Below are positions 9,098-51,065 of a stretch of DNA of 64,000 nucleotides, piece by piece. The stretch lies in the IMG/VR virus record IMGVR_UViG_3300028833_000004. The stretch is one strand, 5' to 3'. The notes under the pieces are model-generated. The model was given only the letters and a program-made list of their open reading frames with translations. It was not told the origin of the DNA and ran no database searches. The position numbers and the translations under genes are program-made. Position 1 is the first letter of the stretch, and each line of letters begins with the position of its first letter. The DNA is from a virus.

Positions 9098-9116
9098 CTG
9101 ATAATCAATTAATTAG

Positions 9117-9189
9117 TTGCCCTGAATGGATTCGAACCATTTCCCCAGCTTTTAGAGAGCCATCAACTAACCATTATTATGACAGGGCA
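9117..9189 (-). tRNA. suppressor tRNA, anticodon CUA (reads UAG)
   Basis: 73 nt. Acceptor TGCCCTG/CAGGGCA. Anticodon stem TGGCT/AGCTG with loop CT-CTA-AA. T-arm AATGG-TTCGAAT-CCATT. GG in D-loop. D-stem weak. Confidence 0.75.
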
Positions 9190-27098: not shown

Positions 27099-27255
27099 TT
27101 GAAACAGCGTTTTAAGGATTTACGGTACGCTGTTAAGAGAAACCTCTGCCACATGGGCAGGGTGTTATAATGGAACCTCTCTCACCGATCCCACCAAGGC
27201 TCATGCACTACCTGTGGGCTGATACTCTTCTATTGCATTATTCAAGTATCCAGTG
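27099..27255 (-). ncRNA. structured spacer inside the tRNA cluster (possible small RNA)
   Basis: GC-richer 157 nt with an 8-bp hairpin AACAGCGT/ACGCTGTT, a CTGCC/GGCAG hairpin and an enclosing AGAGA/TCTCT helix. No tRNA fold found. Confidence 0.3.
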
Positions 27256-27329
27256 CGGATTCAGTAGGACTTGAACCTACGACCCTCTGATTAACAGTCA
27301 GATGCTCTAACCAACTGAGCTATGAATCC
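27256..27329 (-). tRNA. tRNA-Asn (GTT)
   Basis: Acceptor GGATTCA/TGAATCC. D-stem GCTC/GAGC. Anticodon loop CT-GTT-AA. T-arm GTAGG-TTCAAGT-CCTAC. Confidence 0.85.
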
Positions 27330-30165: not shown

Positions 30166-30929
30166 TATACTTTATTACGACGATGCACGTGGAAGTGCGG
30201 ACCAGTAGTAATTCCAGGAATGGGATTATCTTTCTCATTTTTAATATAAATGCCCTTATCTCTCATATATTGTTGTATCTCTGGATCATTATCAATAATC
30301 TATTGAGCGAGTTCATAATCATTATCGATAGGGGTAAAATCAACGGCATTACCTTGATAGTGTGTTGAATTTTTTACATGCCCAGACTAAGCAAATCCCT
30401 CAGTAACTCTAACTCCAATCCCCTTACTAGTTAATAACTTTAAGAAATCGATAACATCATTGTGTACATTATCTAATGTTATTCCTTTTTTAAATATTAA
30501 CTCCCCTGGTTCTATATCCCTGGATTTAATATTTGTAGTCCTAATATAATCTCTTAATTTTAAATCAGGATTAAATTTAGACTTATTATCAAGATTTTTA
30601 TCAAGATTGGCTGAAATCTCTTTATATCTTTCAAAAGCTTGAAATCTCTAATTGAACCGATCTGGAAAGAGATCAGAGTAATCCTTGTATTCTGGCTGAG
30701 ATGTATTTGGCAAATATGTAGAGTTATAAAACTCTAAACCTTCTGCTCCTTTTTTAACCCATTTACGTGCGTTCTAAGCAAATGTAGCCTTCTTTCTTAT
30801 AGAGGCTAGTGGAGAATTTTTTCCCTTTCTAATACATTCTTCTGTAACTTTCCCACCACAGTAATCTGTGAAGGAACCTCGTTTTGAGGGTTTTATATGA
30901 ATCCCACCTTGTTTAAATATATTGATCAT
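30165..30929 (-). CDS. LAS-family zinc peptidase (peptidase M15-like cell-wall hydrolase), TAG-recoded
   Basis: ATG at 30929, TAA at 30165, 4 in-frame TAG. Contains STHYQGNAVDF (H-x6-D) and PHFHV (HxH). Confidence 0.65.
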
Positions 30930-30999
30930 AACTAAAAATTTTTTACAAAATTAAAAATTTTTTTAAAAAAATAAAAGTCAAAAATAGGCCCCCCGGGGT

Positions 31000-31600
31000 T
31001 TTTAAATGAGGGGGTGTTTAGGTGCAGAAGTTGGGTGTAGATTGGAAGTTTTTGTGAGTTGTGGGAGCGGGAGGACACCTAGGCAGCATGGCCCCCCGCA
31101 AAGCGTATGGGAAAACAATACCCAGCAGGCCTCAGGCCCTGCCGGGTATAATTTTCCCATAGACACAATTTCGCGGAGGAGCGTGATCGCCTTTCCTGGA
31201 AATGGCTGTGTTGCACCAATAGCAGCATGGCTCCGCGGCCTCACGAAATTGTGTCGACATCCCGACAGGTGACCTGGCGTGCTAACCGACTGGGATGTAA
31301 AACAGCACTGCATCTTCGGATGTACCAGGACGGGGCGGTTGGAGACAACCAGACGAAACCGTGACGGAAGTAGTCTAGTAGAATCATGCAATCGGAGATG
31401 GTATCAAAGATTAAGCACTAATTCACAATAGATGTGGAAAGTCTGAATCCCTCTTTAAAGTGTAAGGAGATGACCGTTGATAAAATGCTTTCAACAAGGT
31501 AAGACAAGTACTGCTATAATGAATTCAAACGGGCAATCTTAACTGCCCCAAAGCTCTCTGAGTTCTGGAATCTTAGTAGGAGAGTTATAATTAATAAAGA
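31000..31600 (+). ncRNA. large structured non-coding RNA candidate
   Basis: Nested helices 31106-31115/31152-31161 and 31162-31178/31231-31255. UUCG hairpin at 31310-31323. GAGA-loop hairpin at 31337-31350. Only overlapping low-quality ORFs on both strands. Confidence 0.4.
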
Positions 31601-31608
31601 TACTTGGT

Positions 31609-32019
31609 ATGAAGACATATCAAGAAAATGTTAAAGCATTAATTAGTAAACTTAATGCCTCATTTGGCTTTAAGTTTTACTTAGAAGAGATGGCCAATTT
31701 TGGCCGTCCCTTCACAATTCTCCGTGAGGGGACTGGATACTGTTTAGATATACAGTATTCAGAATCTGGGTTTGGAACAACCGACCTGGGCCTTTTTGGG
31801 CCCTCGCCAAAGGTTCCAAAACCAACAGACCAATTGCCGGCCATTGCGATAGTGACCGAAACGTGGGACGATTGGTACCCACAAATTAAAGACACCAATG
31901 TGGAATTCTGTCAAAGAATTCCAATACCGTTTCCGCAATCCCACACCAAAGAGGTGTGGCATACGTGCGGCTGTGCGCATACAATACACACCCACACCAG
32001 GGTAATTGTGGAGTGCTAG
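31609..32019 (+). CDS. hypothetical protein (136 aa; C-terminal third doubtful)
   Basis: Track ORF. The N-terminal 100 aa look protein-like. Ends at TAG, then TAA two codons later. Confidence 0.45.
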   Translation: MKTYQENVKALISKLNASFGFKFYLEEMANFGRPFTILREGTGYCLDIQYSESGFGTTDLGLFGPSPKVPKPTDQLPAIAIVTETWDDWYPQIKDTNVEFCQRIPIPFPQSHTKEVWHTCGCAHTIHTHTRVIVEC

Positions 32020-32063
32020 CCCTAAGGCCCATCTATGGAGCAGGACACAGTTCGATTCTGTGT

Positions 32064-32351
32064 ATGGGCCCTATGCCTATGAAACAAGATGGAGTCCCTG
32101 CTGGATGCATGCGATTTAACGTCGCCTTGTATCAAGCAAGACTCGAATCCTTGGAGAGTTTCTTAGGCTCTAATCCGTATGCCGGGGAATACGAACTGGC
32201 CTTATGCTGGGGAGTATCTCTGTCCGCGGCAATAGCCACCATGCATAAAATAATGGTTGGGATTAGAGCCGGGATACTTCAATCAAAATTCCCAATAAAT
32301 GGGAAGAAGATTGGAGTAAAAGGAAACTATTATGTCGTATATAAGGCATAA
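32064..32351 (+). CDS. small hypothetical protein, possible HTH (about 95 aa)
   Basis: In-frame ATGs at 32064 and 32079 within track ORF 31956..32351. LESLES motif shared with ORF 32471. Confidence 0.45.
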   Translation: MGPMPMKQDGVPAGCMRFNVALYQARLESLESFLGSNPYAGEYELALCWGVSLSAAIATMHKIMVGIRAGILQSKFPINGKKIGVKGNYYVVYKA

Positions 32352-32407
32352 CTCCTGCAGAGGGATGCGTATTCTGCATTACTCATAACGCATAACGATA
32401 GATCTTA

Positions 32408-32453
32408 GCTATTACAAAACACCTCCTTGTAATAGCCGGACAAGTATAGGAGG
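32408..32453 (+). promoter_or_regulatory. leader hairpin whose loop (CCTCC) is complementary to the downstream AGGAGG
   Basis: Perfect 10-bp stem 32408-32417/32427-32436. Loop aacaCCTCC. AGGAGG at 32448-32453, 17 nt before ATG 32471. Confidence 0.35.
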
Positions 32454-32470
32454 TATAAATTCGACAGACT

Positions 32471-32731
32471 ATGAATATGTATGTCGACATGGCTGTAGAG
32501 CCTCACGGCCCTACGTCTGAGAATGACATCGGGATTGCCATTCTACAGGCGTTAGAATCAAGATTGGAGAGTCCTAATGCTTTCTAGGCATCTCCAATCA
32601 AGTACTGTCTGTACGCAAATTCTGATGAGGACATAGCCTATTTGAGATCTTGGATTTGTAGTAATCTTAGATCTACAAATGGCAAATCTGTCCTATCAGA
32701 ATTTGACTACGGTCAGTAGTAGGGCTCCTGA
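32471..32731 (+). CDS. small hypothetical protein (86 aa if 3 TAG are read; 38 aa in the standard code)
   Basis: ATG at 32471. TAG at 32585, 32717 and 32720. TGA at 32729. ALESRLES motif paralogous to ORF 32064. Confidence 0.35.
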
Positions 32732-33180
32732 GTAAGACTCCGAGTGTAATGAGCTCGGGAACAGAAATCATCCCTGTATTGATATTGGTTTATCATACAG
32801 GCCTAAAGTTGGCCGTACATGGACACCACTATGTGTAGGGCCTAAATTAAAGAGCATCATCTCTCTAAACTGTCTAGCGGCTTGACCACATCCTTTCGGT
32901 ACTGGCGGTGAAAATCCAAACCGGGCTAGCAAGCAGCTCATCTTGTAAAACCGAGCCACCTAAGCATTCATATATGTGAGCTTTCGGCAGCAGCATGTAT
33001 GAAAGACGGGCATCCTCAATATGATGTAAAACTATTGACATCAGATAAGATGTAAAAATCCCCACTACCGGGGTGACATGGTACTCGGATTGTTAATTGT
33101 CTGGCCGAGCGGACTAGAGCAGTTCTTGACCCACGGGCTGTCGACGATCCACATTTTATGTGGATATTTTGGGTATTCAT

Positions 33181-33849
33181 ATGGCAACAAAGAATATTAT
33201 TGCCGAAGTAATTAATGCGAGCAAAGATGCTCGCCAATTTAGTGAGGAAGAGCTTCAAAAGAAGCTTGCCTCTCTAAATGGGCGAGATGGCTCGCCCCTC
33301 AAAGCCGAAGAGGAGCTTTGGCTCCTCCCGGTGCTCCTTCCAAGCTGGAAGTGGAAGGGCATTGAGGGTGAATACCCTGCACTTCCAGCCATCAACCAGA
33401 ACGGACACCTGGTCGTAATAGGTCTTGGAAGCCTCGCTGGAGGTTCTGGGTACCTAGAGGATCCAGGCGAAGGAACCTGGGAAATTTCGGAGACCGGATG
33501 GTGGTATCTAAAACCGTCTGAGGTCCCCGAAGGTGGTAGCAGGGCCACCAAAGTCTGGGGGTTGTCGAGGAGTCTTAAAGACTCATTCAACGACAACCTC
33601 GAGCTCAGAGGGGTCGTATCCCTCAAAGTAGAGGAGGACGGCTATTGTTACGGGCCGAGGCTCGTAAAGGCCGGGAGTCCCGACGAGGGACGAGAGAGGG
33701 CAAGCCTGCGCTTTAAGCGCAACACCCATTTCTGGGAAGGCAAGGCCCAGCCAATAACCGCCATTCCGAGCAAACTTAAAAAGTTTGCAGAGAAGCTGGG
33801 TTTACCGATGGAATGGCTAAAACCATTCCCAGCTGACTTCTACTGCTGA
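33181..33849 (+). CDS. hypothetical protein (222 aa), starts MATKN
   Basis: Track ORF 33160..33849 trimmed to the ATG. Followed by a strong terminator. Confidence 0.65.
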   Translation: MATKNIIAEVINASKDARQFSEEELQKKLASLNGRDGSPLKAEEELWLLPVLLPSWKWKGIEGEYPALPAINQNGHLVVIGLGSLAGGSGYLEDPGEGTWEISETGWWYLKPSEVPEGGSRATKVWGLSRSLKDSFNDNLELRGVVSLKVEEDGYCYGPRLVKAGSPDEGRERASLRFKRNTHFWEGKAQPITAIPSKLKKFAEKLGLPMEWLKPFPADFYC

Positions 33850-33850
33850 A

Positions 33851-33892
33851 ATAAAGGATCCTAGAGAAATCTAGGATCCTTTATTTTTTTTG
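33851..33892 (+). terminator. rho-independent terminator
   Basis: 14-bp perfect stem 33851-33864/33871-33884, then T8. Confidence 0.85.
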
Positions 33893-33970
33893 GCGACTCA
33901 TCATGGCCCCAGGTACTTTATAGCGCATAAAGCGTATTATTATTTTTTTTTAATTTAATATTTTTATTGT

Positions 33971-34639
33971 ATGGCAACGAAAAATTCGTATCTGGGTGAA
34001 AAATTCAACCCAGCAGATGAGAGCGATCGTGCTCTCAAAGACATGAAGGCACTCGAATCAGTTAATTTTGAGCGCCAAGCTCCATTAACTGAAGGTGCAA
34101 CTTATATCCTCCTACCGCAGGAAAATACAGCGGCTGTATATACTATCCCAGGAGTTGGTGATAGAGTTTCTCGCCGATTCTGGGCAGTTGAGCTTAACCG
34201 AAAGAATGAGCCTGTATCTATACGTAGTATAGGCTATTCATCGATAGCCAAAATGGGATATCAAGAAAAGACTTCAGCTCAACCTGCTGCACCAGAGGTT
34301 CCTGCATATCAGGATAAAGAAGGAAAATGGCACCCGAAACGTGGGTTAAGTTATGTGTTCTCATGCGAGGACCACAACTTCATTAAGGCAAACCCAGAGA
34401 CAATGCTTATGGAGATAAAGACTCCTACGGCATTGAAAGTGATGCGTAGAGCCGAAGTGTGGGTTGCATCCTTTAAGGATCAAGCATTAGTAGTAAAGGA
34501 CGGGATGATTGTTCCTGAAGTAGATGACCGATTCGTGTTCTTCAAAACCCTCGTAGCCCCAACTGAAGATATAGTTGAGGCTTGCAAAAAGGTCCTTGAA
34601 AATGAAGACTCAATTCAAGACTGCCTTTACCTGTTGTAA
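33971..34639 (+). CDS. hypothetical protein (222 aa), starts MATKN
   Basis: Track ORF. Same length and same first 5 residues as ORF 33181. Confidence 0.65.
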   Translation: MATKNSYLGEKFNPADESDRALKDMKALESVNFERQAPLTEGATYILLPQENTAAVYTIPGVGDRVSRRFWAVELNRKNEPVSIRSIGYSSIAKMGYQEKTSAQPAAPEVPAYQDKEGKWHPKRGLSYVFSCEDHNFIKANPETMLMEIKTPTALKVMRRAEVWVASFKDQALVVKDGMIVPEVDDRFVFFKTLVAPTEDIVEACKKVLENEDSIQDCLYLL

Positions 34640-34649
34640 GGGTAGTCTT

Positions 34650-35330
34650 GAAGGTAACACTTTTAAAACCGAAAATATTTCATATAAGTGTTATTTTATA
34701 AAGGGCCGACCGAAACCAGCAGACGGTGAAATAGTTTATGCCATGTTTCGCCGTCTGTCTGATGATTCGGTATTATTATTAATGTATCTCCCTGAATGGT
34801 CAGGAGTATAAATATTGTTGACCAGGAATTTGTCAGTAGTATTGAAACTGTCAATATGTAGTTATATAACATCCGCAGTATTATACATTGAAATATGTAT
34901 AATTGTCTAACAAGTTATGTATAATAAGTTGAAGGTGAAATCTAAATCCTAATCCTGTATAGTTAGACTACAGGTAGCATGTGCAATACCTATAGGTCAT
35001 GCTGTGTGTATATACCCTAAGAGTATCTAGTTCCTATGCTTATAAATGGAAATGGTAGGGGTATTATACACACAAAAAATTGTATTTTGTTAATCAAAAG
35101 TAGTTCAGTATTAAAATGAAGCATAGCGGCTGGTAACCGATTAGAGAGTACCAGACATAGAGTGAAGTCTGTGTCGAAACACATTGCTATAGGAAGACCT
35201 CTATAGATAAAAGGACAATGTGTATGCAATTTCCTTACTGCATAAATCCGAGACTGTTGGTAACAGTTGAACTTCACAGACAGCTATATAGGTGGACTAA
35301 CCATCCGCATCTAGACTATATAGCTTTTTT
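34650..35330 (+). ncRNA. hairpin-dense non-coding tract (one or more small RNAs?)
   Basis: Hairpins at 34954-34974 and 35004-35073 (14+ bp). Two ATGTATAAT boxes at about 34894 and 34917. Ends at terminator 35282-35330. Confidence 0.3.
35282..35330 (+). terminator. rho-independent terminator
   Basis: 9-bp stem AGCTATATA/TATATAGCT at 35282-35290/35317-35325, then T6. Confidence 0.6.
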
Positions 35331-35581
35331 ACTCATACCACTGTGATAGGTGGTATGGGTCCTATCTTGCTTTCTGATATACAATCAGTGGACAACTGCT
35401 TACTTTGAAGAATAAAGGTATGGCAAGAGCTGCACTCTTACTAGGTTCTTGAGTGATAACTTCAAAGCGCTGCGTTTATTAGAGCGTGGAAACAGAAATC
35501 TAATACTCTATTTCTTATTCAGAGTATAACTGAATATATCCCATCCGATGGTAGTGAAAACGATGTAAAACTAAACCTACC

Positions 35582-35607
35582 AATTTTTATTAACAATCTA
35601 AAAATTA
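35582..35607 (+). promoter_or_regulatory. conserved 26-nt early leader/promoter motif, copy 1
   Basis: aatttttattaacaatctaaaaatta lies 8 nt before ATG 35616. A near-identical copy sits at 35993-36018. Confidence 0.4.
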
Positions 35608-35615
35608 TTAGTAAT

Positions 35616-35984
35616 ATGCAAACAATTATGTATCAAGATGAAAAAGGATATAGATATATCCCAGTTTTCCAACCAGAGTTATCAAACTTGTTTGAATATA
35701 CTCGAAAAAAAGTATATCACATCTATACAGATAATCCTAAATGGTGTGGAAAAATATTACCAGAAGTAGTAAATGACACATCTATAGACGTAGGTACAAG
35801 AACTTATTGGCTGGAGAGAACTAATAACTCCATAGAGTGGGGACTAAAACCTTATCACAAGATATCATTTAAAGACATTGAAGAATTAGATGAAGATATA
35901 TGTGAAATATATAATTTTGAGTCAATTGGAATTGATTCAAGTGGAGTTTATGAATATGAAATTATCTATCCCTATGATGATTAG
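35616..35984 (+). CDS. hypothetical protein (122 aa)
   Basis: Track ORF. Terminates at TAG (35982-35984). Confidence 0.65.
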   Translation: MQTIMYQDEKGYRYIPVFQPELSNLFEYTRKKVYHIYTDNPKWCGKILPEVVNDTSIDVGTRTYWLERTNNSIEWGLKPYHKISFKDIEELDEDICEIYNFESIGIDSSGVYEYEIIYPYDD

Positions 35985-35992
35985 GGATAGAT

Positions 35993-36018
35993 AATTTTTA
36001 TTAACAATTTAAAAATTA
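35993..36018 (+). promoter_or_regulatory. conserved 26-nt early leader/promoter motif, copy 2
   Basis: aatttttattaacaatttaaaaatta lies 6 nt before ATG 36025. Confidence 0.4.
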
Positions 36019-36024
36019 AAAAAT

Positions 36025-36324
36025 ATGAAAAAAGTATATAACGTTGTTCATCACTATGATGTTGATGGCGGAATTGGATATGCCATCAGTCAAAAAGAAG
36101 TTCTATTTATAACTTCTGTCAAAAAAGTGGCAGAAGAATTTATAGATAAATATTCCCATGATCATGTCTATGATGTTCCATATTCAGAACTTCATATGGG
36201 ATTATTAAAAGTGGAAGAATTCAATGTAATAGAATCTTGGGAGGATATCCCCAAAAATATAATTGAATGGGGAGATGAAAACAAAAGTGAGACAGACAAC
36301 TATAATCCGGATGACTATCATTAA
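36025..36324 (+). CDS. hypothetical protein (99 aa)
   Basis: Track ORF. Confidence 0.65.
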   Translation: MKKVYNVVHHYDVDGGIGYAISQKEVLFITSVKKVAEEFIDKYSHDHVYDVPYSELHMGLLKVEEFNVIESWEDIPKNIIEWGDENKSETDNYNPDDYH

Positions 36325-36382
36325 GATTATGAGTTTTCTATCTCAGACTGGTTAGATTGGTAATTATTAAAATATATAAATT

Positions 36383-36601
36383 ATGAAGAAGATATTGAAT
36401 TATATACTGTTGTACGGCACAATAGTGTACAGCTTGCTATTTTTAATGGCGGCAGAGTCATTAATCGAAAGCCTTCCCGCAATAGCCTGTATTATGATTT
36501 TAATACAGGCAACATTAATATTCTTATGTATAGGAATATTTGGAGATGGAAAGTGGCGTGAATATGTACCTAAATGGATAAGTAGGATGGATGAAGATTA
36601 A
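36383..36601 (+). CDS. small membrane protein (72 aa)
   Basis: Track ORF with two hydrophobic helices. Confidence 0.6.
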   Translation: MKKILNYILLYGTIVYSLLFLMAAESLIESLPAIACIMILIQATLIFLCIGIFGDGKWREYVPKWISRMDED

Positions 36602-36804
36602 TTAAATCATGATATATCCTTATATAATGAAACCCTTTTTGACTAACCATTTATGGAGGAATAAATGGAAGCAGGTAAGAAGACATAATAGAAATTGACC
36701 AATTTTCATTATCCTGAGGATCTGGGTACACACAGTATCCTGAAAGTCTTCAATTTGTTCCTAAGAGAGTGATATCTGTTAGGGGCACTAACCCTGCAAA
36801 GGGA

Positions 36805-36878
36805 TTTGTCGTATTAATTTGTGTTTTTCCTGTCGAGAGAGTCTTAATCCTTATTTGGTTGGAAGATGGTTTAGAAGA
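36805..36878 (+). repeat. 74-bp border repeat, order A(36 nt)-B(38 nt)
   Basis: A is tttgtcgtattaatttgtgtttttcctgtcgagaga. B is gtcttaatccttatttggttggaagatggtttagaaga. Both recur at 38350-38423 in swapped order. Confidence 0.9.
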
Positions 36879-37101
36879 CATGCGCGTGCGGTTATATAAG
36901 TAGTGTGTCTTCCGAGTAGTGTGTCTTGCGAACGACTCGGATGAACGACTACAAATTAACGTTTTTTTAGTAACTTGTTTGGGCATGTTAAGTCTTGGTG
37001 TTGATTTCATGTTCTCGAAGTGTCCGTTTGAGGTATATTCGGACGATTTTTATATTACTATTTCAAAAGTGGAGGCACCACGATAAAAACTGTTTATTGT
37101 T

Positions 37102-37383
37102 ATGTATTTATTGAACGCATTTAGTTTGCAGATGGTGGAAACACCTGTATCTGTGAAATTTTCTGAAATAGAAGTGAACGAATTGCCCAAAGAATTAACA
37201 TCAGCCATCGGGCATGCGGATACTGCTGCTGTTCTTGGTGTTGAATGCAATCGCATAAATGTTAAATTAGCAAAAGGCGATACCGCATACGTTGCCCAAC
37301 TGATGGGCGGACGACTCCCCGAAGGGAGCACAACTCTCCCCGAAGGATTCCACTTCAAGTTTATTAAGGTGGACGTTGAATAA
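37102..37383 (+). CDS. acrIII-1: DUF1874 / AcrIII-1-like viral ring nuclease (anti-type III CRISPR), 93 aa
   Basis: LLNAFSLQM, SAIGHADTA, CNRINVKLAKGDTAYVAQ and GGRLPEGSTTLPEG match recalled hallmarks of SIRV1 gp29 / STIV B116 (NAFSINM, IGHxSTA, NR..GD, RLEEG). Confidence 0.7.
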   Translation: MYLLNAFSLQMVETPVSVKFSEIEVNELPKELTSAIGHADTAAVLGVECNRINVKLAKGDTAYVAQLMGGRLPEGSTTLPEGFHFKFIKVDVE

Positions 37384-37499
37384 ATCCCTTATTCAAAATA
37401 ATCAATACGTCAAAGAGCTAATAAATAGGATTTTTGACTAAAATGACAAATCATAAATCCTTAATTAAAAATTACTTATATTTATAAACCTACAATCAA

Positions 37500-37925
37500 A
37501 TGCCATTTAATGAGATGTGGGAAAGTTTAGTGAATATGTATAAGAGTACTGTAATGTTTCTCCGCTCAAATCGGAGAAATCGTCAAACAAAAATGACGAG
37601 GGGCGAATATTGTCCAGGAGAGCTTAAAAGTTCTCAGGCAATTCGCCAAATACTTTTTGATTTGAGAGGTAAGTTAATTCACTTTCCCAAGGATTCTTGG
37701 GTGTACTACATCTTAAGAGACCTTAAGATGGAAGAGTTCCGAAGAGGTGAAATAACCTACTGGAGATGTTGCCCGTACTTTGAGAGGGTGTACATTAACT
37801 TCAATGATGAAGCTAATTGGAACGAACTCCAAAGTACAGGTAAACTCTCCTGGGCTCGGGATGAGTATATATCATGGCTAAAAGCTGTGATGCCGCTCCG
37901 TTCTGAGATTATCCAGGTAGAGTGA
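37500..37925 (+). CDS. hypothetical protein (141 aa)
   Basis: Track ORF downstream of the acr-like gene. No recognised motif. Confidence 0.5.
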   Translation: MPFNEMWESLVNMYKSTVMFLRSNRRNRQTKMTRGEYCPGELKSSQAIRQILFDLRGKLIHFPKDSWVYYILRDLKMEEFRRGEITYWRCCPYFERVYINFNDEANWNELQSTGKLSWARDEYISWLKAVMPLRSEIIQVE

Positions 37926-38219
37926 TCTCCATCGGAGTTCCCACTACAGCAATGTGAATGGCAAGAGAGTGGGTGAAAGAGAGTTGCCCGCTGGTCACGT
38001 AAGACCACAGTCGAAGGTTACACGGAATCTTAAAGATGTAACCGAGTATTTAAAGTTGGGGACAAGTGATTGGTTTTGCTTGTACTTTCTAAATGGGTGT
38101 ACGCCATTCCGTCGGGAATAGTATTCTACTACCATTCCTTGTAAACGACCCGACGCTAAATAATAAACGTTCGACAACGGAAGGACTTGTGCTATCAGGC
38201 TGAACGGGCGGAAATATAG

Positions 38220-38260
38220 CAATCGCATGGGTTAGGTGCGTCCGTGCGGTTGCTTTTTTG
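38220..38260 (+). terminator. rho-independent terminator
   Basis: 9-bp stem GCAATCGCA/TGCGGTTGC (one G-U) at 38220-38228/38246-38254, then T6. Confidence 0.6.
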
Positions 38261-38349
38261 TTATGCACCAAAACGATTTGAACGGATGAAGAGTCTGAAA
38301 ATTTGGCTTGTCAATGTATCTAATTGGCAAGTTGTAGAACATTGCGGCG

Positions 38350-38423
38350 GTCTTAATCCTTATTTGGTTGGAAGATGGTTTAGAAGATTTGTCGTATTAA
38401 TTTGTGTTTTACCTGTCGAGAGA
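38350..38423 (+). repeat. 74-bp border repeat, order B(38 nt)-A(36 nt)
   Basis: B is identical to 36841-36878. A differs from 36805-36840 at one base. Confidence 0.9.
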
Positions 38424-38480
38424 CAGTAAGATCCTGTTGTGAAACAGTGTCTCTGGCATTTTAGATGTTAATAATATACG

Positions 38481-38603
38481 GGTATAGGAGTTTGAATACT
38501 CCCATACCTCCTAAAGTAATAAAGTTGTTAAAACTTTGCTGAGGCCGAATATACTCGCTTAGGCTTTGTTACTTGGGTATAGAGATTTGGTTATCTCTAT
38601 ACC
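38481..38603 (+). repeat. two related hairpins (GGTATAGrAG...CTCyATACC)
   Basis: Hairpins at 38481-38508 and 38576-38603 share stem sequence and the flanking TACCTyCTAA. No T-runs. Confidence 0.6.
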
Positions 38604-38697
38604 TTCTAATTTAATTGAAGAATTTATTTGTTGTTTATTGGGTTGTTTTGTTGAAGTTTGTCATGAGGATTACTTAATTGGGGTTAAGTAATCAGAA

Positions 38698-38727
38698 CTC
38701 TCCCCTGAAATATGGGGAGAGTTTTAT
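38698..38727. terminator. bidirectional terminator hairpin
   Basis: Stem CTCTCCCC/GGGGAGAG at 38698-38705/38714-38721. Abuts the stop of the minus-strand gene at 38724. Confidence 0.6.
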
Positions 38728-39476
38728 AAAACTATATCTTGAAAATTAACTTTATTTTCTTGTATATGTTTTACCAGTGCATTAATTGTTTTAGATTGAT
38801 GTTCTAACTTCTCTTGTAATTGTTTATATTTAAGAGATAAATCATCATGTTCTGATTGTAGAGATTCAATTTTAGAATCTGTTTCTAAGAATTTAAGAGC
38901 AATAGTATTGGCGAATTCATTAAAATTATATATTCGCTGGTAATTACATTCTAAATCAGTATGCCCATTATCTGGGATTTTTACCAATATATTTTTATCT
39001 TCTAAGGATTTCTCATATTTTTGTAAAGTTCTGGGATCTATATTGAGATAATTTGCTAATTGTTTATTACTATATGTAATAATTCCATTTTGTGCAACTG
39101 GATCTTTAAACATAAATTGTTGACTCATTACAATCATCGACTTATCTCTAGAGGATAAATTAGAATCATTTAGAAAATCAAAAGAAAATATTTCAAATTT
39201 ATTATAATCATTAAAGGTATATATAGAAGATGTGCCAGGTCTCTTAGTTATATTAATATATCCTGCATTTTCTAACCTTTTAAGTCCATTTAAAATAGTT
39301 TTTCTATCTAATTCGGAATCTTTTACAATAGTGGAAATTTGTGGATATGCCTGTTTTGTTTCTAAATTCATATATTTTTTAATACAGGCATAGATATAGG
39401 GATCATTTAGTGTTAATCCTTGCTTTTTTAAATCCATATTTGGGATTTGTACGTGCTGTTTTGATAATTCATTCAT
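38724..39476 (-). CDS. replication initiator-like protein with two winged-helix-type domains (250 aa)
   Basis: Track ORF. Contains YPQISTIVKDSELDRKTILNGLKRLENAGYI and NKQLANYLNIDPRTLQKYEKSLEDKNIL. Divergent from the adjacent iteron array. Confidence 0.55.
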   Translation of the reverse strand: MNELSKQHVQIPNMDLKKQGLTLNDPYIYACIKKYMNLETKQAYPQISTIVKDSELDRKTILNGLKRLENAGYINITKRPGTSSIYTFNDYNKFEIFSFDFLNDSNLSSRDKSMIVMSQQFMFKDPVAQNGIITYSNKQLANYLNIDPRTLQKYEKSLEDKNILVKIPDNGHTDLECNYQRIYNFNEFANTIALKFLETDSKIESLQSEHDDLSLKYKQLQEKLEHQSKTINALVKHIQENKVNFQDIVL

Positions 39477-39630: not shown

Positions 39631-39724
39631 TTGGTATTGGTATACAAATTCGATACTACCCTATGCAAATTCGATACTACCCCCCTATGCAAAATTGGTA
39701 CTACCCTATGCAAAATTGGTACTC
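39631..39724 (+). repeat. iteron array (4 x about 21-24 bp), origin-like
   Basis: TAT(A/G)CAAA(A)TT(C/G)G(A/T)TACTACCC starts at 39641, 39662, 39686 and 39707. Followed by AT-rich direct repeats at 39725-39760. Confidence 0.7.
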
Positions 39725-39846: not shown

Positions 39847-39919
39847 GCCGCAATAGCTCAATGGATAGAGCAACTGACTTCTAATCAGTAGGTTGTAAGT
39901 TCGATTCTTACTTGCGGTA
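39847..39919 (+). tRNA. tRNA-Arg (TCT)
   Basis: Acceptor GCCGCAA/TTGCGGT. D-stem GCTC/GAGC. Anticodon loop CT-TCT-AA. T-arm GTAAG-TTCGATT-CTTAC. Confidence 0.85.
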
Positions 39920-39990
39920 CTAGGGAGAGAGGAGTATCTCCACCCTCAAACACTCCCAACTGCTTACTAATCAGTTAAATATATTTTTTT

Positions 39991-50055: not shown

Positions 50056-50358
50056 ATGACAGATTACACAGGAAAGAAAGTAATTGTCCGCTCGCACGGA
50101 GCGGGAGTGTTCTTCGGAACGTTGAAAGAATTTGATGCCGCCAACGGTATCGTAGAGTTAACAAACTGCCGCCGTGTGTGGTACTGGAGCGGTGCAACCT
50201 CGCTGTCCCAACTCGCTTGCGAGGGCGTTAAGAATGCCGGAGGCAGCAAGATAACGCAAGAGGTTGCGTCTATATGCGTTACACAAGTTTTGGAAATTAT
50301 TCCATGCACGGAAGAGGCTATTGAAAATCTAAATCGTGTGCCGGTATGGAAGATGTAA
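50056..50358 (+). CDS. hypothetical protein (100 aa) in a GC-richer insert
   Basis: Track ORF. Confidence 0.65.
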   Translation: MTDYTGKKVIVRSHGAGVFFGTLKEFDAANGIVELTNCRRVWYWSGATSLSQLACEGVKNAGGSKITQEVASICVTQVLEIIPCTEEAIENLNRVPVWKM

Positions 50359-51065
50359 TTAAACGCTTTTTAGCAGTAGAATATGGCTATGGTTATGGTT
50401 ATGGCTTTGGCTATGGCTATGGCTATGGCGATGGCGATGGCTCTGGCGATGGCTCTGGCTCTGGCTATAGCGATGGCGATGGCGATGGCTCTGGCGATGG
50501 CTCTGGCTTTGGCTATAGCGATGGCTATGGCTATGGTTATGGCTCTGGCTTTGGCTATGGCTCTGGCGATGGCGATGGCTCTGGCGATGGCGATGGCTCT
50601 GGCATAAAATCTTTTTGTGGGCAAAAAGTCTATATCATAGATAGCGTGCAAACTCTTATCGATAGTATACATGGCAATTATGCAAGAGGTGCGATACTCA
50701 AATCTGATTTGACTACCGAGTCTTGCTACATAGCTAAGGTAGGCAATTTCTTTGCTCACGGCACTACGCTCAAGCAGGCGTTTGCAGACGCACAAGAAAA
50801 GTACGACAGGAACAGATCTATAAAAGAACGCATTGCAGATTTCGTGCAGCAATACCCGACACTTGACACAAAGTGCAAGGGCGCAGACCTCTTCCGGTGG
50901 CACAATGTCCTAACGGGCTCGTGCCAATTAGGCAGAGAGCAGTTTTGCAACGAGCGTGGCATTAACCCCGATACCGTTACGATGACTGTAAGAGAGTTTA
51001 TAGAACTGACAAAAAACGCCTACGGCAGTAAGGCAATCCTACTACTGCGTGAAGCGTATAACTAA
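50346..51065 (+). CDS. protein with N-terminal (Gly-X)n repeat, X = Y/F/D/S, and a globular C-terminal domain (239 aa)
   Basis: Track ORF. About 75 residues of GYGYGYGFGYGYGYGDGDGSGDGSGSG... followed by non-repetitive sequence. Confidence 0.7.
   Translation: MEDVIKRFLAVEYGYGYGYGFGYGYGYGDGDGSGDGSGSGYSDGDGDGSGDGSGFGYSDGYGYGYGSGFGYGSGDGDGSGDGDGSGIKSFCGQKVYIIDSVQTLIDSIHGNYARGAILKSDLTTESCYIAKVGNFFAHGTTLKQAFADAQEKYDRNRSIKERIADFVQQYPTLDTKCKGADLFRWHNVLTGSCQLGREQFCNERGINPDTVTMTVREFIELTKNAYGSKAILLLREAYN
50383..50607 (+). repeat. hexanucleotide-periodic tandem repeat (ggc-tat / ggc-gat / ggc-tct / ggc-ttt units)
   Basis: Seen directly. It generates open frames in several phases on both strands. Confidence 0.9.

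What the first reader, a model, noticed from the sequence alone, without database searches (positions are those of the whole stretch)
31000..31600. About 600 nt of ORF-poor, highly base-paired sequence: candidate large structured RNA
Nested long-range helices can be read directly. TATGGGAAAA (31106-31115) pairs with TTTTCCCATA (31152-31161) and encloses a GC-rich bulged hairpin. GACACAATTTCGCGGAG (31162-31178) pairs with CTCCGC...CGAAATTGTGTC (31231-31255). There is a UUCG-loop hairpin at 31310-31323 and a GAGA (GNRA) loop hairpin at 31337-31350. The only ORFs overlap each other on both strands and have non-protein-like composition. Large ornate RNAs are known to occur in phages, often near tRNAs, but I cannot assign this one to any named class.
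Basis: seen in the sequence. Interest (0 to 1): 0.7.

Follow-up and report, generated by a model that had tools for sequence, protein, structure and literature searches.

The report
Orphan structured non-coding leader in phage
A GC-rich stretch with no gene, at the start of one arm of a gut/rumen-type phage genome, can fold into two unusually stable hairpin domains and is probably a non-coding leader RNA, but it has no relatives anywhere, so this cannot be proven.

Summary
Only about 250 of the 600 nt fold better than chance: 31025-31270 has z = -5.4 (+) and -6.1 (-), with 0 of 200 shuffles as good. 31271-31600, which holds the UUCG and GAGA hairpins, has z = -1.15.

No ORF there is credible. 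There is no Pfam or PHROG hit, no real homologue among 1.84 billion representative proteins, and no stop-codon recoding opens a frame. No Rfam family matches at E <= 10.

The region is an orphan. I found identical copies in three metagenome contigs that cover it, and nothing diverged in GenBank phages, IMG/VR, metagenome or genome scans, or related phages. Covariation therefore could not be tested.

The host genome is a TAG-recoded phage distantly related to Crassvirales. The region opens the rightward gene arm, just after a palindromic signal (A5T5...CCCCCGGGGT) that relatives also carry. It is the first part of a 3.7-kb GC-rich, hairpin-dense island (31000-34700).

My best reading (confidence about 0.4) is a transcribed non-coding leader or early lncRNA, like the unexplained early lncRNAs of phage phi14:2. 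A DNA-level element remains a serious rival.

A separate conserved structured element at 35019-35325, shared with Crassvirales, is better supported than the finding itself.

The parts
30934..30999 (.). Bipartite palindromic signal: two AAAAATTTTTT tracts followed by CCCCCGGGGT. It lies in the divergent intergenic region between the leftward M15-like gene (start at 30929) and the rightward arm.
   Evidence: Read. CCCCCGGGG occurs only here in the 64 kb. The same order of blocks is found in relatives: L011 and L016. The pattern is also found in at least 120 IMG/VR contigs.
31025..31270 (+). Structured GC-rich core. This is the only part of the finding that folds better than chance.
   Evidence: z = -5.4 (+) and -6.1 (-), 0 of 200 shuffles as good. 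GC is 53-55%.
31067..31099 (+). Small GC hairpin (GCGGG / CCCGC).
   Evidence: Pair probability 1.00 in the ensemble.
31106..31161 (+). Long hairpin of 10 + 6 + 5 + 2 bp with small internal loops.
   Evidence: Inverted repeat I1. P 0.8-0.99. z = -7.1.
31162..31255 (+). Domain closed by a 12 + 5 bp helix with a 7-nt bulge, enclosing an 11-bp hairpin at 31204-31232. Its 3' strand can instead pair with 31030-31064.
   Evidence: z = -4.8. The competing pairing has P 0.8-0.99.
31271..31608 (+). Spacer that becomes AT-rich. It contains the UUCG (31310-31323) and GAGA (31337-31350) hairpin sequences and a sigma70-like site (31491-31520). It is not more structured than chance.
   Evidence: z = -1.15. 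Individual hairpins were tested.
31609..32351 (+). Two overlapping ORFs, 31609-32019 (136 aa) and 31956-32351 (131 aa). Their coding status is doubtful, and the RNA here is strongly structured.
   Evidence: There are no homologues: orf136 matched only itself among 5.8 billion protein clusters, and neither ORF has a Pfam or PHROG hit. Codon-position bias is weak. z reaches -7.0.
32352..33180 (+). Second ORF-free stretch, very structured. It includes a long imperfect hairpin at 32603-32718.
   Evidence: z = -7.9 for 32340-33200. Inverted repeat I2. No open frame under any stop-codon recoding.
33181..33886 (+). orf222a (33181-33849) and a perfect 17-bp hairpin with a GAAA loop and a T run (33849-33886). 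This hairpin is the first strong intrinsic terminator downstream of 31000.
   Evidence: Gene call in L001 and L002. Codon bias is coding-like. Inverted repeat I4. z = -8.9.
33971..34639 (+). orf222b, the second orphan 222-aa gene of the GC-rich island. Like orf222a it starts MATKN.
   Evidence: Exact copies in 8 contigs. No homologues. Clear coding bias.

Best explanation
The 31000-31600 stretch is the non-coding start of the rightward transcription arm of a TAG-recoded phage distantly related to Crassvirales.

Transcription would begin near the A5T5...CCCCCGGGGT signal at 30934-30999. It would run rightward through about 620 nt without a gene, then through a hairpin-dense GC-rich island, to the first strong terminator at 33849-33886.

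Within the finding, the functional part is the 246-nt domain 31025-31270: a 21-23 bp hairpin plus a domain closed by a 17-bp stem. I propose that it acts at the RNA level as a very stable 5' module. It would protect the long early transcript from 5'-end-dependent decay and give it a long life, either as a cis leader for the downstream orphan genes or as part of a long non-coding RNA. The model is the abundant, unusually persistent early lncRNAs of the crAss-like phage phi14:2.

Shown: the sequence, the excess folding stability, the absence of coding capacity and of homologues, the position relative to the signal and the strand switch, and the absence of an earlier intrinsic terminator.

Inferred: that it is transcribed, in which direction, where the transcript starts and ends, and everything about its function.
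For: - Folding stability is far above shuffled controls for 31025-31270.
- The whole island 31050-34800 has mean z = -3.1 against -0.8 in neighbouring genes. The + strand is slightly more structured than the - strand (Wilcoxon p = 0.013).
- The alternative outer helix that uses G.U pairs exists only on the + strand.
- There is no coding capacity: no Pfam or PHROG hit, no codon bias, no frame opened by recoding, and only low-complexity hits among 1.84 billion representative proteins.
- Strand composition and gene direction switch at about 31000. Island ORFs lie on the + strand, and the first strong + strand terminator is at 33849-33886.
- Relatives L011 and L016 carry the same signal about 110 nt upstream of their first rightward gene. 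So here the signal is followed by an inserted leader.
- The iteron-type origin lies elsewhere, at 39641-39723.
[quoted passage not shown] The corresponding ORFs were de-annotated in NC_021806.
Against: - There is no transcription data.
- No homologue exists, so there is no covariation. All three contigs that cover the region are 100% identical.
- Both strands fold equally well in the core. G.T and A.C mismatches in hairpins are balanced at 7:6. The structure is therefore equally compatible with DNA palindromes.
- No recognisable promoter lies upstream: the Bacteroidota -7 motif is not enriched and is absent on the + strand here.
- The A5T5...CCCCCGGGGT signal sits among iteron-like repeats in other phages. 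That fits an origin or operator at least as well as a promoter.
- The phi14:2 lncRNA regions are AT-rich and share no sequence with this one.
- Relatives do without this segment.
Confidence: 0.4

Rival explanations
1. It is an independent, trans-acting large structured RNA of a new class. It could extend over the ORF-poor 2.2 kb (31000-33180) and act, for example, as a decoy or scaffold during host takeover.
For: - The 2.2 kb are ORF-poor, GC-rich and strongly structured.
- There is no Rfam match, so if real it would be a new class.
- phi14:2 shows that crAss-like phages make abundant lncRNAs.
- A genuinely conserved structured element lies 3.4 kb downstream in the same arm.
Against: - Within the finding only 246 nt exceed chance.
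- Predicted structure is mostly a chain of local hairpins, not multi-way junctions.
- There is no terminator or other 3' end signal before 33849.
- No homologue was found in any collection, and a covariance model found only itself.
- It is not adjacent to tRNA genes.
- ORFs of 136 and 131 codons interrupt the stretch.
Confidence: 0.2
2. It is a DNA-level element. The inverted repeats would act as hairpins or cruciforms in DNA next to the A5T5...CCCCCGGGGT signal. They could serve in replication or packaging, in control of genome ejection, or as structured promoters for a virion RNA polymerase that prefers single-stranded templates.
For: - Both strands are equally palindromic, and there is no G.U excess.
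- The cumulative GC-skew minimum and the gene-direction switch are at about 31000.
- The adjacent signal is made of two palindromes. It lies beside iterons in L016 and among repeated TTTTCAGAG motifs in a large IMG/VR family.
- The phi14:2 virion RNA polymerase was assayed on denatured DNA, and its early transcripts share no upstream sequence motif.
- From my own knowledge, not tested here: phage N4 early promoters are DNA hairpins, and the phage T5 injection-stop region is rich in inverted repeats.
Against: - An iteron array next to the HTH_36 initiator-like gene is 8.6 kb away, at 39641-39723.
- Relatives carry the signal without this hairpin domain.
- The excess of structure continues for 3.7 kb, including inside two coding-like ORFs. 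That is hard to explain by a local DNA site.
- Over the island the + strand folds slightly better than the - strand.
Confidence: 0.2
3. It has no specific function. It is recently acquired or decaying foreign DNA of higher GC content, and its palindromes and open frames are remnants or chance.
For: - The island is an orphan: its ORFs and its DNA have no relatives.
- GC3 of the island ORFs is 0.38-0.57, against 0.15-0.25 in backbone genes.
- Related phages have different, unrelated first genes at this position.
- L016 has GC-rich first genes without excess structure.
Against: - Dinucleotide-controlled z-scores of -5 to -8 over several independent stretches are not a composition effect.
- Decaying genes are not expected to gain stable helices.
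- The sequence is identical in contigs from several independent samples.
Confidence: 0.15
4. It is protein-coding: one of the overlapping ORFs, 31002-31391(-) or 31006-31272(+), is a real small gene.
For: A metagenome gene caller called the 88-aa + strand ORF in L001. A 133-codon open frame is somewhat long for chance.
Against: - No Pfam hit.
- phmmer of the 129-aa ORF against 1.84 billion representative proteins gave only repeat or low-complexity matches.
- G at the three codon positions is 0.33/0.36/0.27 for one ORF and 0.22/0.21/0.25 for the other. Real genes of this phage show about 0.3/0.13/0.12.
- The translations are rich in Cys, Arg, Pro and His.
- The second assembly's gene caller made no call here (L002).
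Confidence: 0.03

Closest known systems
Early long non-coding RNAs of crAss-like phage phi14:2 (g004-g005 and g005-g006 intergenic regions; Drobysheva et al., bioRxiv 10.1101/2020.03.07.982082)
   Same: Both are long gene-free stretches among the first genes of one arm of a crAss-type genome, oriented with the neighbouring genes. In phi14:2 they are transcribed early, at very high level, and persist. Their function is unknown.
   Different: There is no sequence similarity. The phi14:2 regions are AT-rich (17-36% GC), whereas this one is 53-55% GC and hairpin-dense. Transcription of the present region is unknown. The present phage is only distantly related: its large terminase (TerL) is 26-29% identical to those of Crassvirales.
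Large ornate phage-associated RNAs: ROOL and GOLLD (Rfam; cryo-EM paper PMC12286853)
   Same: They are large, GC-rich relative to their surroundings, found in phages or prophages, and of unknown function.
   Different: No covariance-model match even at E <= 10. The region is not next to tRNA genes. Only about 250 nt of the finding are structured above chance. There is no family, so no covariation support.
5' stabiliser stem-loops and long structured leaders of bacterial and phage mRNAs (for example the ompA 5' UTR; from my own knowledge)
   Same: A very stable stem-loop domain near the presumed 5' end of a transcript, followed by genes, with no terminator in between.
   Different: At 246 nt it is far larger than known stabilisers. 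The transcript start is not mapped. The effect on stability is untested.
Hairpin-rich non-coding DNA at the leading end of phage genomes (N4 hairpin early promoters, T5 injection-stop region; from my own knowledge)
   Same: Clustered inverted repeats in a non-coding stretch at the start of the early region.
   Different: The genome ends of this phage are unknown. N4 promoter hairpins are 5-7 bp with 3-nt loops, not helices of 17-23 bp. No repeated promoter-like hairpin consensus was seen.
Conserved structured element of Crassvirales found here at window 35019-35325
   Same: It lies in the same arm and strand and in an ORF-free stretch of the same island neighbourhood.
   Different: That element has homologues (cr273_1, cr130_1, two IMG/VR contigs) and 16 of its 55 pairs show compensatory changes. 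It shows no similarity to 31000-33200.

Membership tests
ROOL / GOLLD / other curated large RNAs (Rfam 15) | A match to the family covariance model. | tested here: not met
   cmscan at gathering thresholds on the whole window found only 5 tRNAs. At E <= 10 on 30500-33500 there were only chance miRNA/sRNA hits far below threshold.
ROOL / GOLLD | The usual genomic setting next to tRNA genes in phages or prophages. | tested here: not met
   The nearest tRNA genes are at 27255-27329 and 39847-39920, 3.7 kb and 8.2 kb away.
Group I / group II self-splicing introns | A match to the catalytic-core model, and interruption of a recognisable host gene. | tested here: not met
   No intron model hit at E <= 10. 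The flanking sequence carries no split ORF with homologues.
tRNA / tmRNA | Cloverleaf or tRNA-like domain plus tag reading frame, detected by ARAGORN. | tested here: not met
   The default ARAGORN run finds nothing between 27329 and 39847. Only noise appears at thresholds lowered to 60-80%.
phi14:2-type early lncRNA of crAss-like phages | A long gene-free stretch among the first genes of the early arm, co-oriented with them. | tested here: inconclusive
   The gene-free stretch is confirmed. The strand switch at about 31000 is confirmed. That the rightward arm is 'early' is inferred only from the late genes (portal, terminase) lying on the other arm and from the absence of in-frame TAG codons in the island ORFs.
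phi14:2-type early lncRNA of crAss-like phages | Abundant transcript present early and persisting late. | not testable with these tools
   No expression data are available here.
phi14:2-type early lncRNA of crAss-like phages | Sequence or structure homology to the phi14:2 regions. | tested here: not met
   nhmmer of 30900-35500 against NC_021806 1-9000 gave no hit at E <= 10.
Evolutionarily conserved structured RNA (any class) | Base pairs kept through compensatory changes among homologues. | not testable with these tools
   No diverged homologue was found.
- The three contigs that cover the region are 100% identical.
- GenBank phages: nothing.
- IMG/VR: nothing.
- Metagenome and genome collections: nothing.
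- Related loci: nhmmer found nothing, and covariance model R1 found only itself.
Protein-coding gene | A homologue, or coding-type codon-position bias. | tested here: not met
   Pfam gave nothing. The search of representative proteins gave only low-complexity hits. Codon-position statistics are flat.
Iteron-type replication origin | Tandem direct repeats next to an initiator gene. | tested here: not met
   In 30933-30976 there is only the A/T tract repeat. The real iteron array (a 21-nt unit, 3.5 copies) is at 39641-39723, beside the HTH_36 gene.

The most novel reading that the evidence does not exclude
The 246-nt domain is the 5' module of a very large (2 kb or more), lineage-specific structured non-coding RNA. 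It would be made early by a TAG-recoded crAss-related phage and would be a GC-rich counterpart of the unexplained phi14:2 lncRNAs. It would work in trans, for example as a nuclease-resistant decoy or scaffold during host takeover.
Probability: 0.2. Interest if true: 0.7.

Novelty: new member of a known kind. Interest (0 to 1): 0.35.

Why it matters
crAss-type phages are among the most abundant viruses in animal guts. In phi14:2, the one member whose early transcriptome I found described, long non-coding RNAs of unknown function are made at higher levels than most protein-coding genes.

If this GC-rich, hairpin-dense leader is transcribed, it would be a second, unrelated example. That would suggest that large early non-coding RNAs are a general, fast-evolving feature of the group, comparable to hypervariable anti-defence genes.

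As it stands the evidence is a single sequence. It is a candidate worth a transcriptome check, not a discovery.

The better-supported by-product is the conserved element at 35019-35325, which has covariation across Crassvirales and no Rfam family.

Tried and rejected
Homologue searches that found nothing for 31000-33200:
- blastn 'distant' against GenBank phages.
- An exact 24-mer in IMG/VR.
- Translated-ORF spaced-seed scans of IMG/VR and of metagenome contigs.
- The helix pattern TATGGGAAAA..TTTTCCCATA in metagenome and genome collections. It gave 154 loci, all chance palindromes without extended similarity.
- nhmmer against 25 related loci and the rest of the window, and against 120 IMG/VR loci that carry the upstream signal.
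- A single-sequence covariance model searched over 399 kb.

Neighbour-guided searches:
- orf136 and orf222b match only themselves among 5.8 billion protein clusters.
- Homologues of the M15-like neighbour led to phages that lack the island.

Strand tests were uninformative: the G.T versus A.C mismatch count and the tetraloop census.

The Bacteroidota promoter motif TAnnTTTG is not enriched.

Low-threshold ARAGORN gave only noise.

AlphaFold single-sequence models of orf222a and orf222b had pLDDT 33 and 38, so I ran no fold search.

An apparent analogue turned out to be false. In a large IMG/VR family a GC-rich 'ORF-poor' kilobase follows the same signal, but it is a set of small reverse-strand genes with Shine-Dalgarno sites.

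Readings rejected: intron, tmRNA, ROOL/GOLLD, iteron origin and protein-coding (see the membership tests).

Full report
**What the window is.** The 64 kb are AT-rich (about 30% GC) phage DNA. Genes lie on the minus strand up to about 30.9 kb and on the plus strand after it, and the cumulative GC-skew minimum is at the switch. Reading TAG as sense roughly doubles the total length of long ORFs, and a tRNA with anticodon CTA is encoded at 9116-9189. The left arm carries portal, large terminase and a GroEL-like gene. The terminase is 43.6% identical to that of an unclassified human-gut phage and 26-29% identical to those of Crassvirales. So this is a TAG-recoded phage distantly related to crAss-like phages. 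Exact copies of the region occur in contigs of 117 kb and 159 kb and in shorter ones, from JGI, ENA and Logan assemblies. The three contigs that span 30900-34700 are 100% identical over those 3.8 kb.

**Checking the observation.** Two of them are far beyond chance:
- The hairpin 31106-31161 (z = -7.1 for 31100-31165).
- The domain closed by 31162-31178 / 31231-31255 (z = -4.8 for 31160-31258).

Each had 0 of 200 dinucleotide shuffles as good. Together with a small GC hairpin they form a core, 31025-31270, with z = -5.4 on the plus strand and -6.1 on the minus strand.

The UUCG and GAGA hairpins are not above chance (z = -0.8 and -1.6). They are not favoured in the ensemble of the longer RNA. 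The remaining 330 nt, 31271-31600, have z = -1.15 and become AT-rich. So about 250 nt, not 600, are 'highly base-paired'.

On the plus strand the 3' strand of the second helix can also pair with a G/U-rich tract at 31030-31064. The thermodynamic model prefers that pairing. This is a prediction only.

**Coding capacity.** The ORFs inside the finding, 31002-31391(-) and 31006-31272(+), have no Pfam hit and flat codon-position statistics, unlike real genes of this phage. Their translations are rich in Cys, Arg, Pro and His. An exhaustive phmmer search of the 129-aa ORF against 1.84 billion representative proteins gave only a repeat-protein hit and one marginal hit. No single stop-codon reassignment opens a long frame anywhere in 30950-33200.

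**Known RNA families.** Rfam 15 gives only the five tRNAs at gathering thresholds. At E <= 10 nothing meaningful appears in 30500-33500 or, at E <= 5, in 33400-39000. ARAGORN finds no tRNA or tmRNA in the island. Lowering its thresholds yields only noise.

**The wider picture.** The finding is the first part of a larger anomaly. From 31000 to about 34700 the DNA is 39-58% GC. Its 150-nt windows fold much better than shuffles: mean z is -3.1 on the plus strand and -2.6 on the minus strand, against -0.8 in the neighbouring genes.

The stretch 30950-33180 holds only two doubtful overlapping ORFs, of 136 and 131 codons. orf136 matched only itself in the protein-cluster search, neither has a Pfam or PHROG hit, and their codon bias is weak. 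32340-33200 has z = -7.9.

Two orphan genes of 222 codons each follow, at 33181-33849 and 33971-34639. Both begin MATKN. Both show coding-type bias but a GC3 of 0.38-0.57, against 0.15-0.25 in the backbone. They are as structured as the non-coding part.

The first strong plus-strand intrinsic terminator after 31000 is the perfect 17-bp hairpin at 33849-33886.

**The search for relatives.** This decided how far the case could go. Nothing similar to 31000-33200 was found by any route:
- GenBank phages.
- IMG/VR.
- Metagenome or genome collections.
- Loci of related phages reached through the neighbouring M15-like gene.
- A covariance model built from the core.

The covariation test is therefore impossible with the data I could reach. 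The region is an orphan of one phage species.

**What relatives do share.**

(a) The signal upstream of the finding. It consists of A5T5-type tracts followed about 30 nt later by CCCCCGGGGT (30934-30999). CCCCCGGGG is unique in the window. The signal recurs in L011 and L016, about 110 nt upstream of their first rightward gene. The pattern also hits at least 120 IMG/VR contigs in about nine sequence families. In L016 it lies beside iterons and an HTH_36/DnaD_N gene. In the largest IMG/VR family it lies among repeated TTTTCAGAG motifs between co-directional genes. It may therefore be an origin or operator element rather than a promoter. In the window, the iteron array is 8.6 kb away, at 39641-39723 next to the HTH_36 gene.

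(b) Downstream non-coding elements. Window 35019-35325 is homologous to unannotated intergenic DNA of Crassvirales cr273_1 and cr130_1 and of two IMG/VR contigs. In a five-sequence alignment, 16 of 55 predicted pairs show compensatory changes. A hairpin at 35328-35364 recurs in L011 and L022, with two compensatory pairs between the window copy and the second L011 copy (read by eye).

The first genes after the signal are unrelated among these phages. The segment after the signal is thus hypervariable, and in this phage about 2.2 kb of ORF-poor sequence has been interposed.

**Interpretation.** The closest precedent is in the literature. [quoted passage not shown] They appear at the earliest time point and do not decline. 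They are called long non-coding RNAs of unknown function, and the ORFs once annotated there were removed from NC_021806. Those regions are AT-rich and share no sequence with the window. The relation is one of analogy, not homology.

I therefore read 31000-31600 as the non-coding start of the rightward transcript. Its 246-nt domain would be a stable 5' module, either a cis stabiliser of a long leader or part of an lncRNA. My confidence is about 0.4.

The main rivals are:
- A separate trans-acting large RNA (0.2).
- A DNA-level hairpin element tied to the adjacent palindromic signal (0.2). In its favour, both strands fold equally well and G.T-type and A.C-type mismatches are balanced.
- Functionless foreign DNA (0.15).
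- Protein-coding (0.03).

Weak arguments for an RNA on the plus strand are the slightly better plus-strand folding over the island (p = 0.013), the G.U-dependent outer helix, and the fact that excess structure runs through 3.7 kb including coding sequence. That last point is hard to assign to a local DNA site.

**Novelty and score.** The feature is real as a sequence anomaly and belongs to no curated family. Without homologues or expression data it is a single-sequence candidate. I file it as a probable new member of a known kind, a phage early non-coding or leader RNA, and give it interest 0.35. The most novel reading not excluded is a structured early RNA of 2 kb or more belonging to a new class. 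I give that a probability of 0.2 and an interest of about 0.7 if true.

Noticed in passing
window 35019-35325 (+), inside the ORF-free stretch 34640-35460: An element of about 300 nt is homologous to unannotated intergenic DNA of Crassvirales phages cr273_1 (L023:4760-5075, inside a 2-kb gene-free gap) and cr130_1 (L024:5003-5337), and of two IMG/VR contigs (L026, L029). nhmmer E-values are 1e-10 to 1e-12. The consensus fold has 55 pairs, 16 of them with compensatory changes in only 5 sequences. There is no Rfam hit. It is a better-supported candidate structured RNA than the finding itself.
   Followed up: partly
window 35328-35364 (+); L011 937-901 and 725-691 (-); L022 1322-1231 (-): A short hairpin (CATACCAC-TGTGATAG-GTGGTATG) is repeated in intergenic DNA of related phages. 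Two base pairs change in a compensatory way between the window copy and the second L011 copy (read by eye). The hairpin occurs once in the window.
   Followed up: partly
window 30934-30999; L011 about 3515-3462 (-); L016 8045-8106: A bipartite signal made of two palindromes, AAAAATTTTT and then about 30 nt later CCCCCGGGGT, lies at the divergent intergenic region. It is often found among iteron-like repeats. It could be an origin, an operator or a promoter.
   Followed up: partly
window 39641-39723, beside the HTH_36 gene at 38724-39476 (-): An iteron array, TATGCAAATTCGATACTACCC in 3.5 copies, is followed by AACTATACTTA-type repeats. This is the likely replication origin. The layout is the same as in L016.
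   Followed up: partly
window 32340-33200 (+): A second ORF-free stretch of the island is even more structured than the finding (z = -7.9). It includes a 116-nt imperfect hairpin at 32603-32718.
   Followed up: partly
window 32026-32070 (+): A tRNA-like minihelix: an 8-bp stem GGGCCCAT/ATGGGCCC flanking an arm with a T-loop-like sequence (ACACAG-TTCGATT-CTGTGT). It lies in the overlap of orf136 and orf131. It is not called by ARAGORN, and its fold is only marginally better than chance (z = -1.85).
   Followed up: partly
window 33181-33849 and 33971-34639 (+): Two adjacent orphan genes of exactly 222 codons both start MATKN but are otherwise not detectably similar. orf222b matched only itself among 5.8 billion protein clusters; neither has a Pfam or PHROG hit. 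Their GC3 is far above the backbone and their mRNA is strongly structured.
   Followed up: partly
window 37926-38723: Another stretch of about 800 nt has no ORF of 100 aa or more. It is GC-rich at 37801-38300 and carries two similar hairpins, at 38481-38508 and 38575-38604, whose stems differ in a compensatory way (GGAG/CTCC against GAGA/TCTC).
   Followed up: no
window 9116-9189 (-), and the genome as a whole: There is a suppressor-type tRNA with anticodon CTA, and many in-frame TAG codons in left-arm (late) genes. None occur in the island ORFs. This indicates stop-codon recoding restricted to part of the genome.
   Followed up: partly
window 50325-51065 (+): A GC-rich spot (48% GC) encodes a protein with a long Gly/Tyr/Asp/Ser repeat N-terminal region (GYGYGFGYGYGDGDGSGDGSG...).
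   Followed up: no
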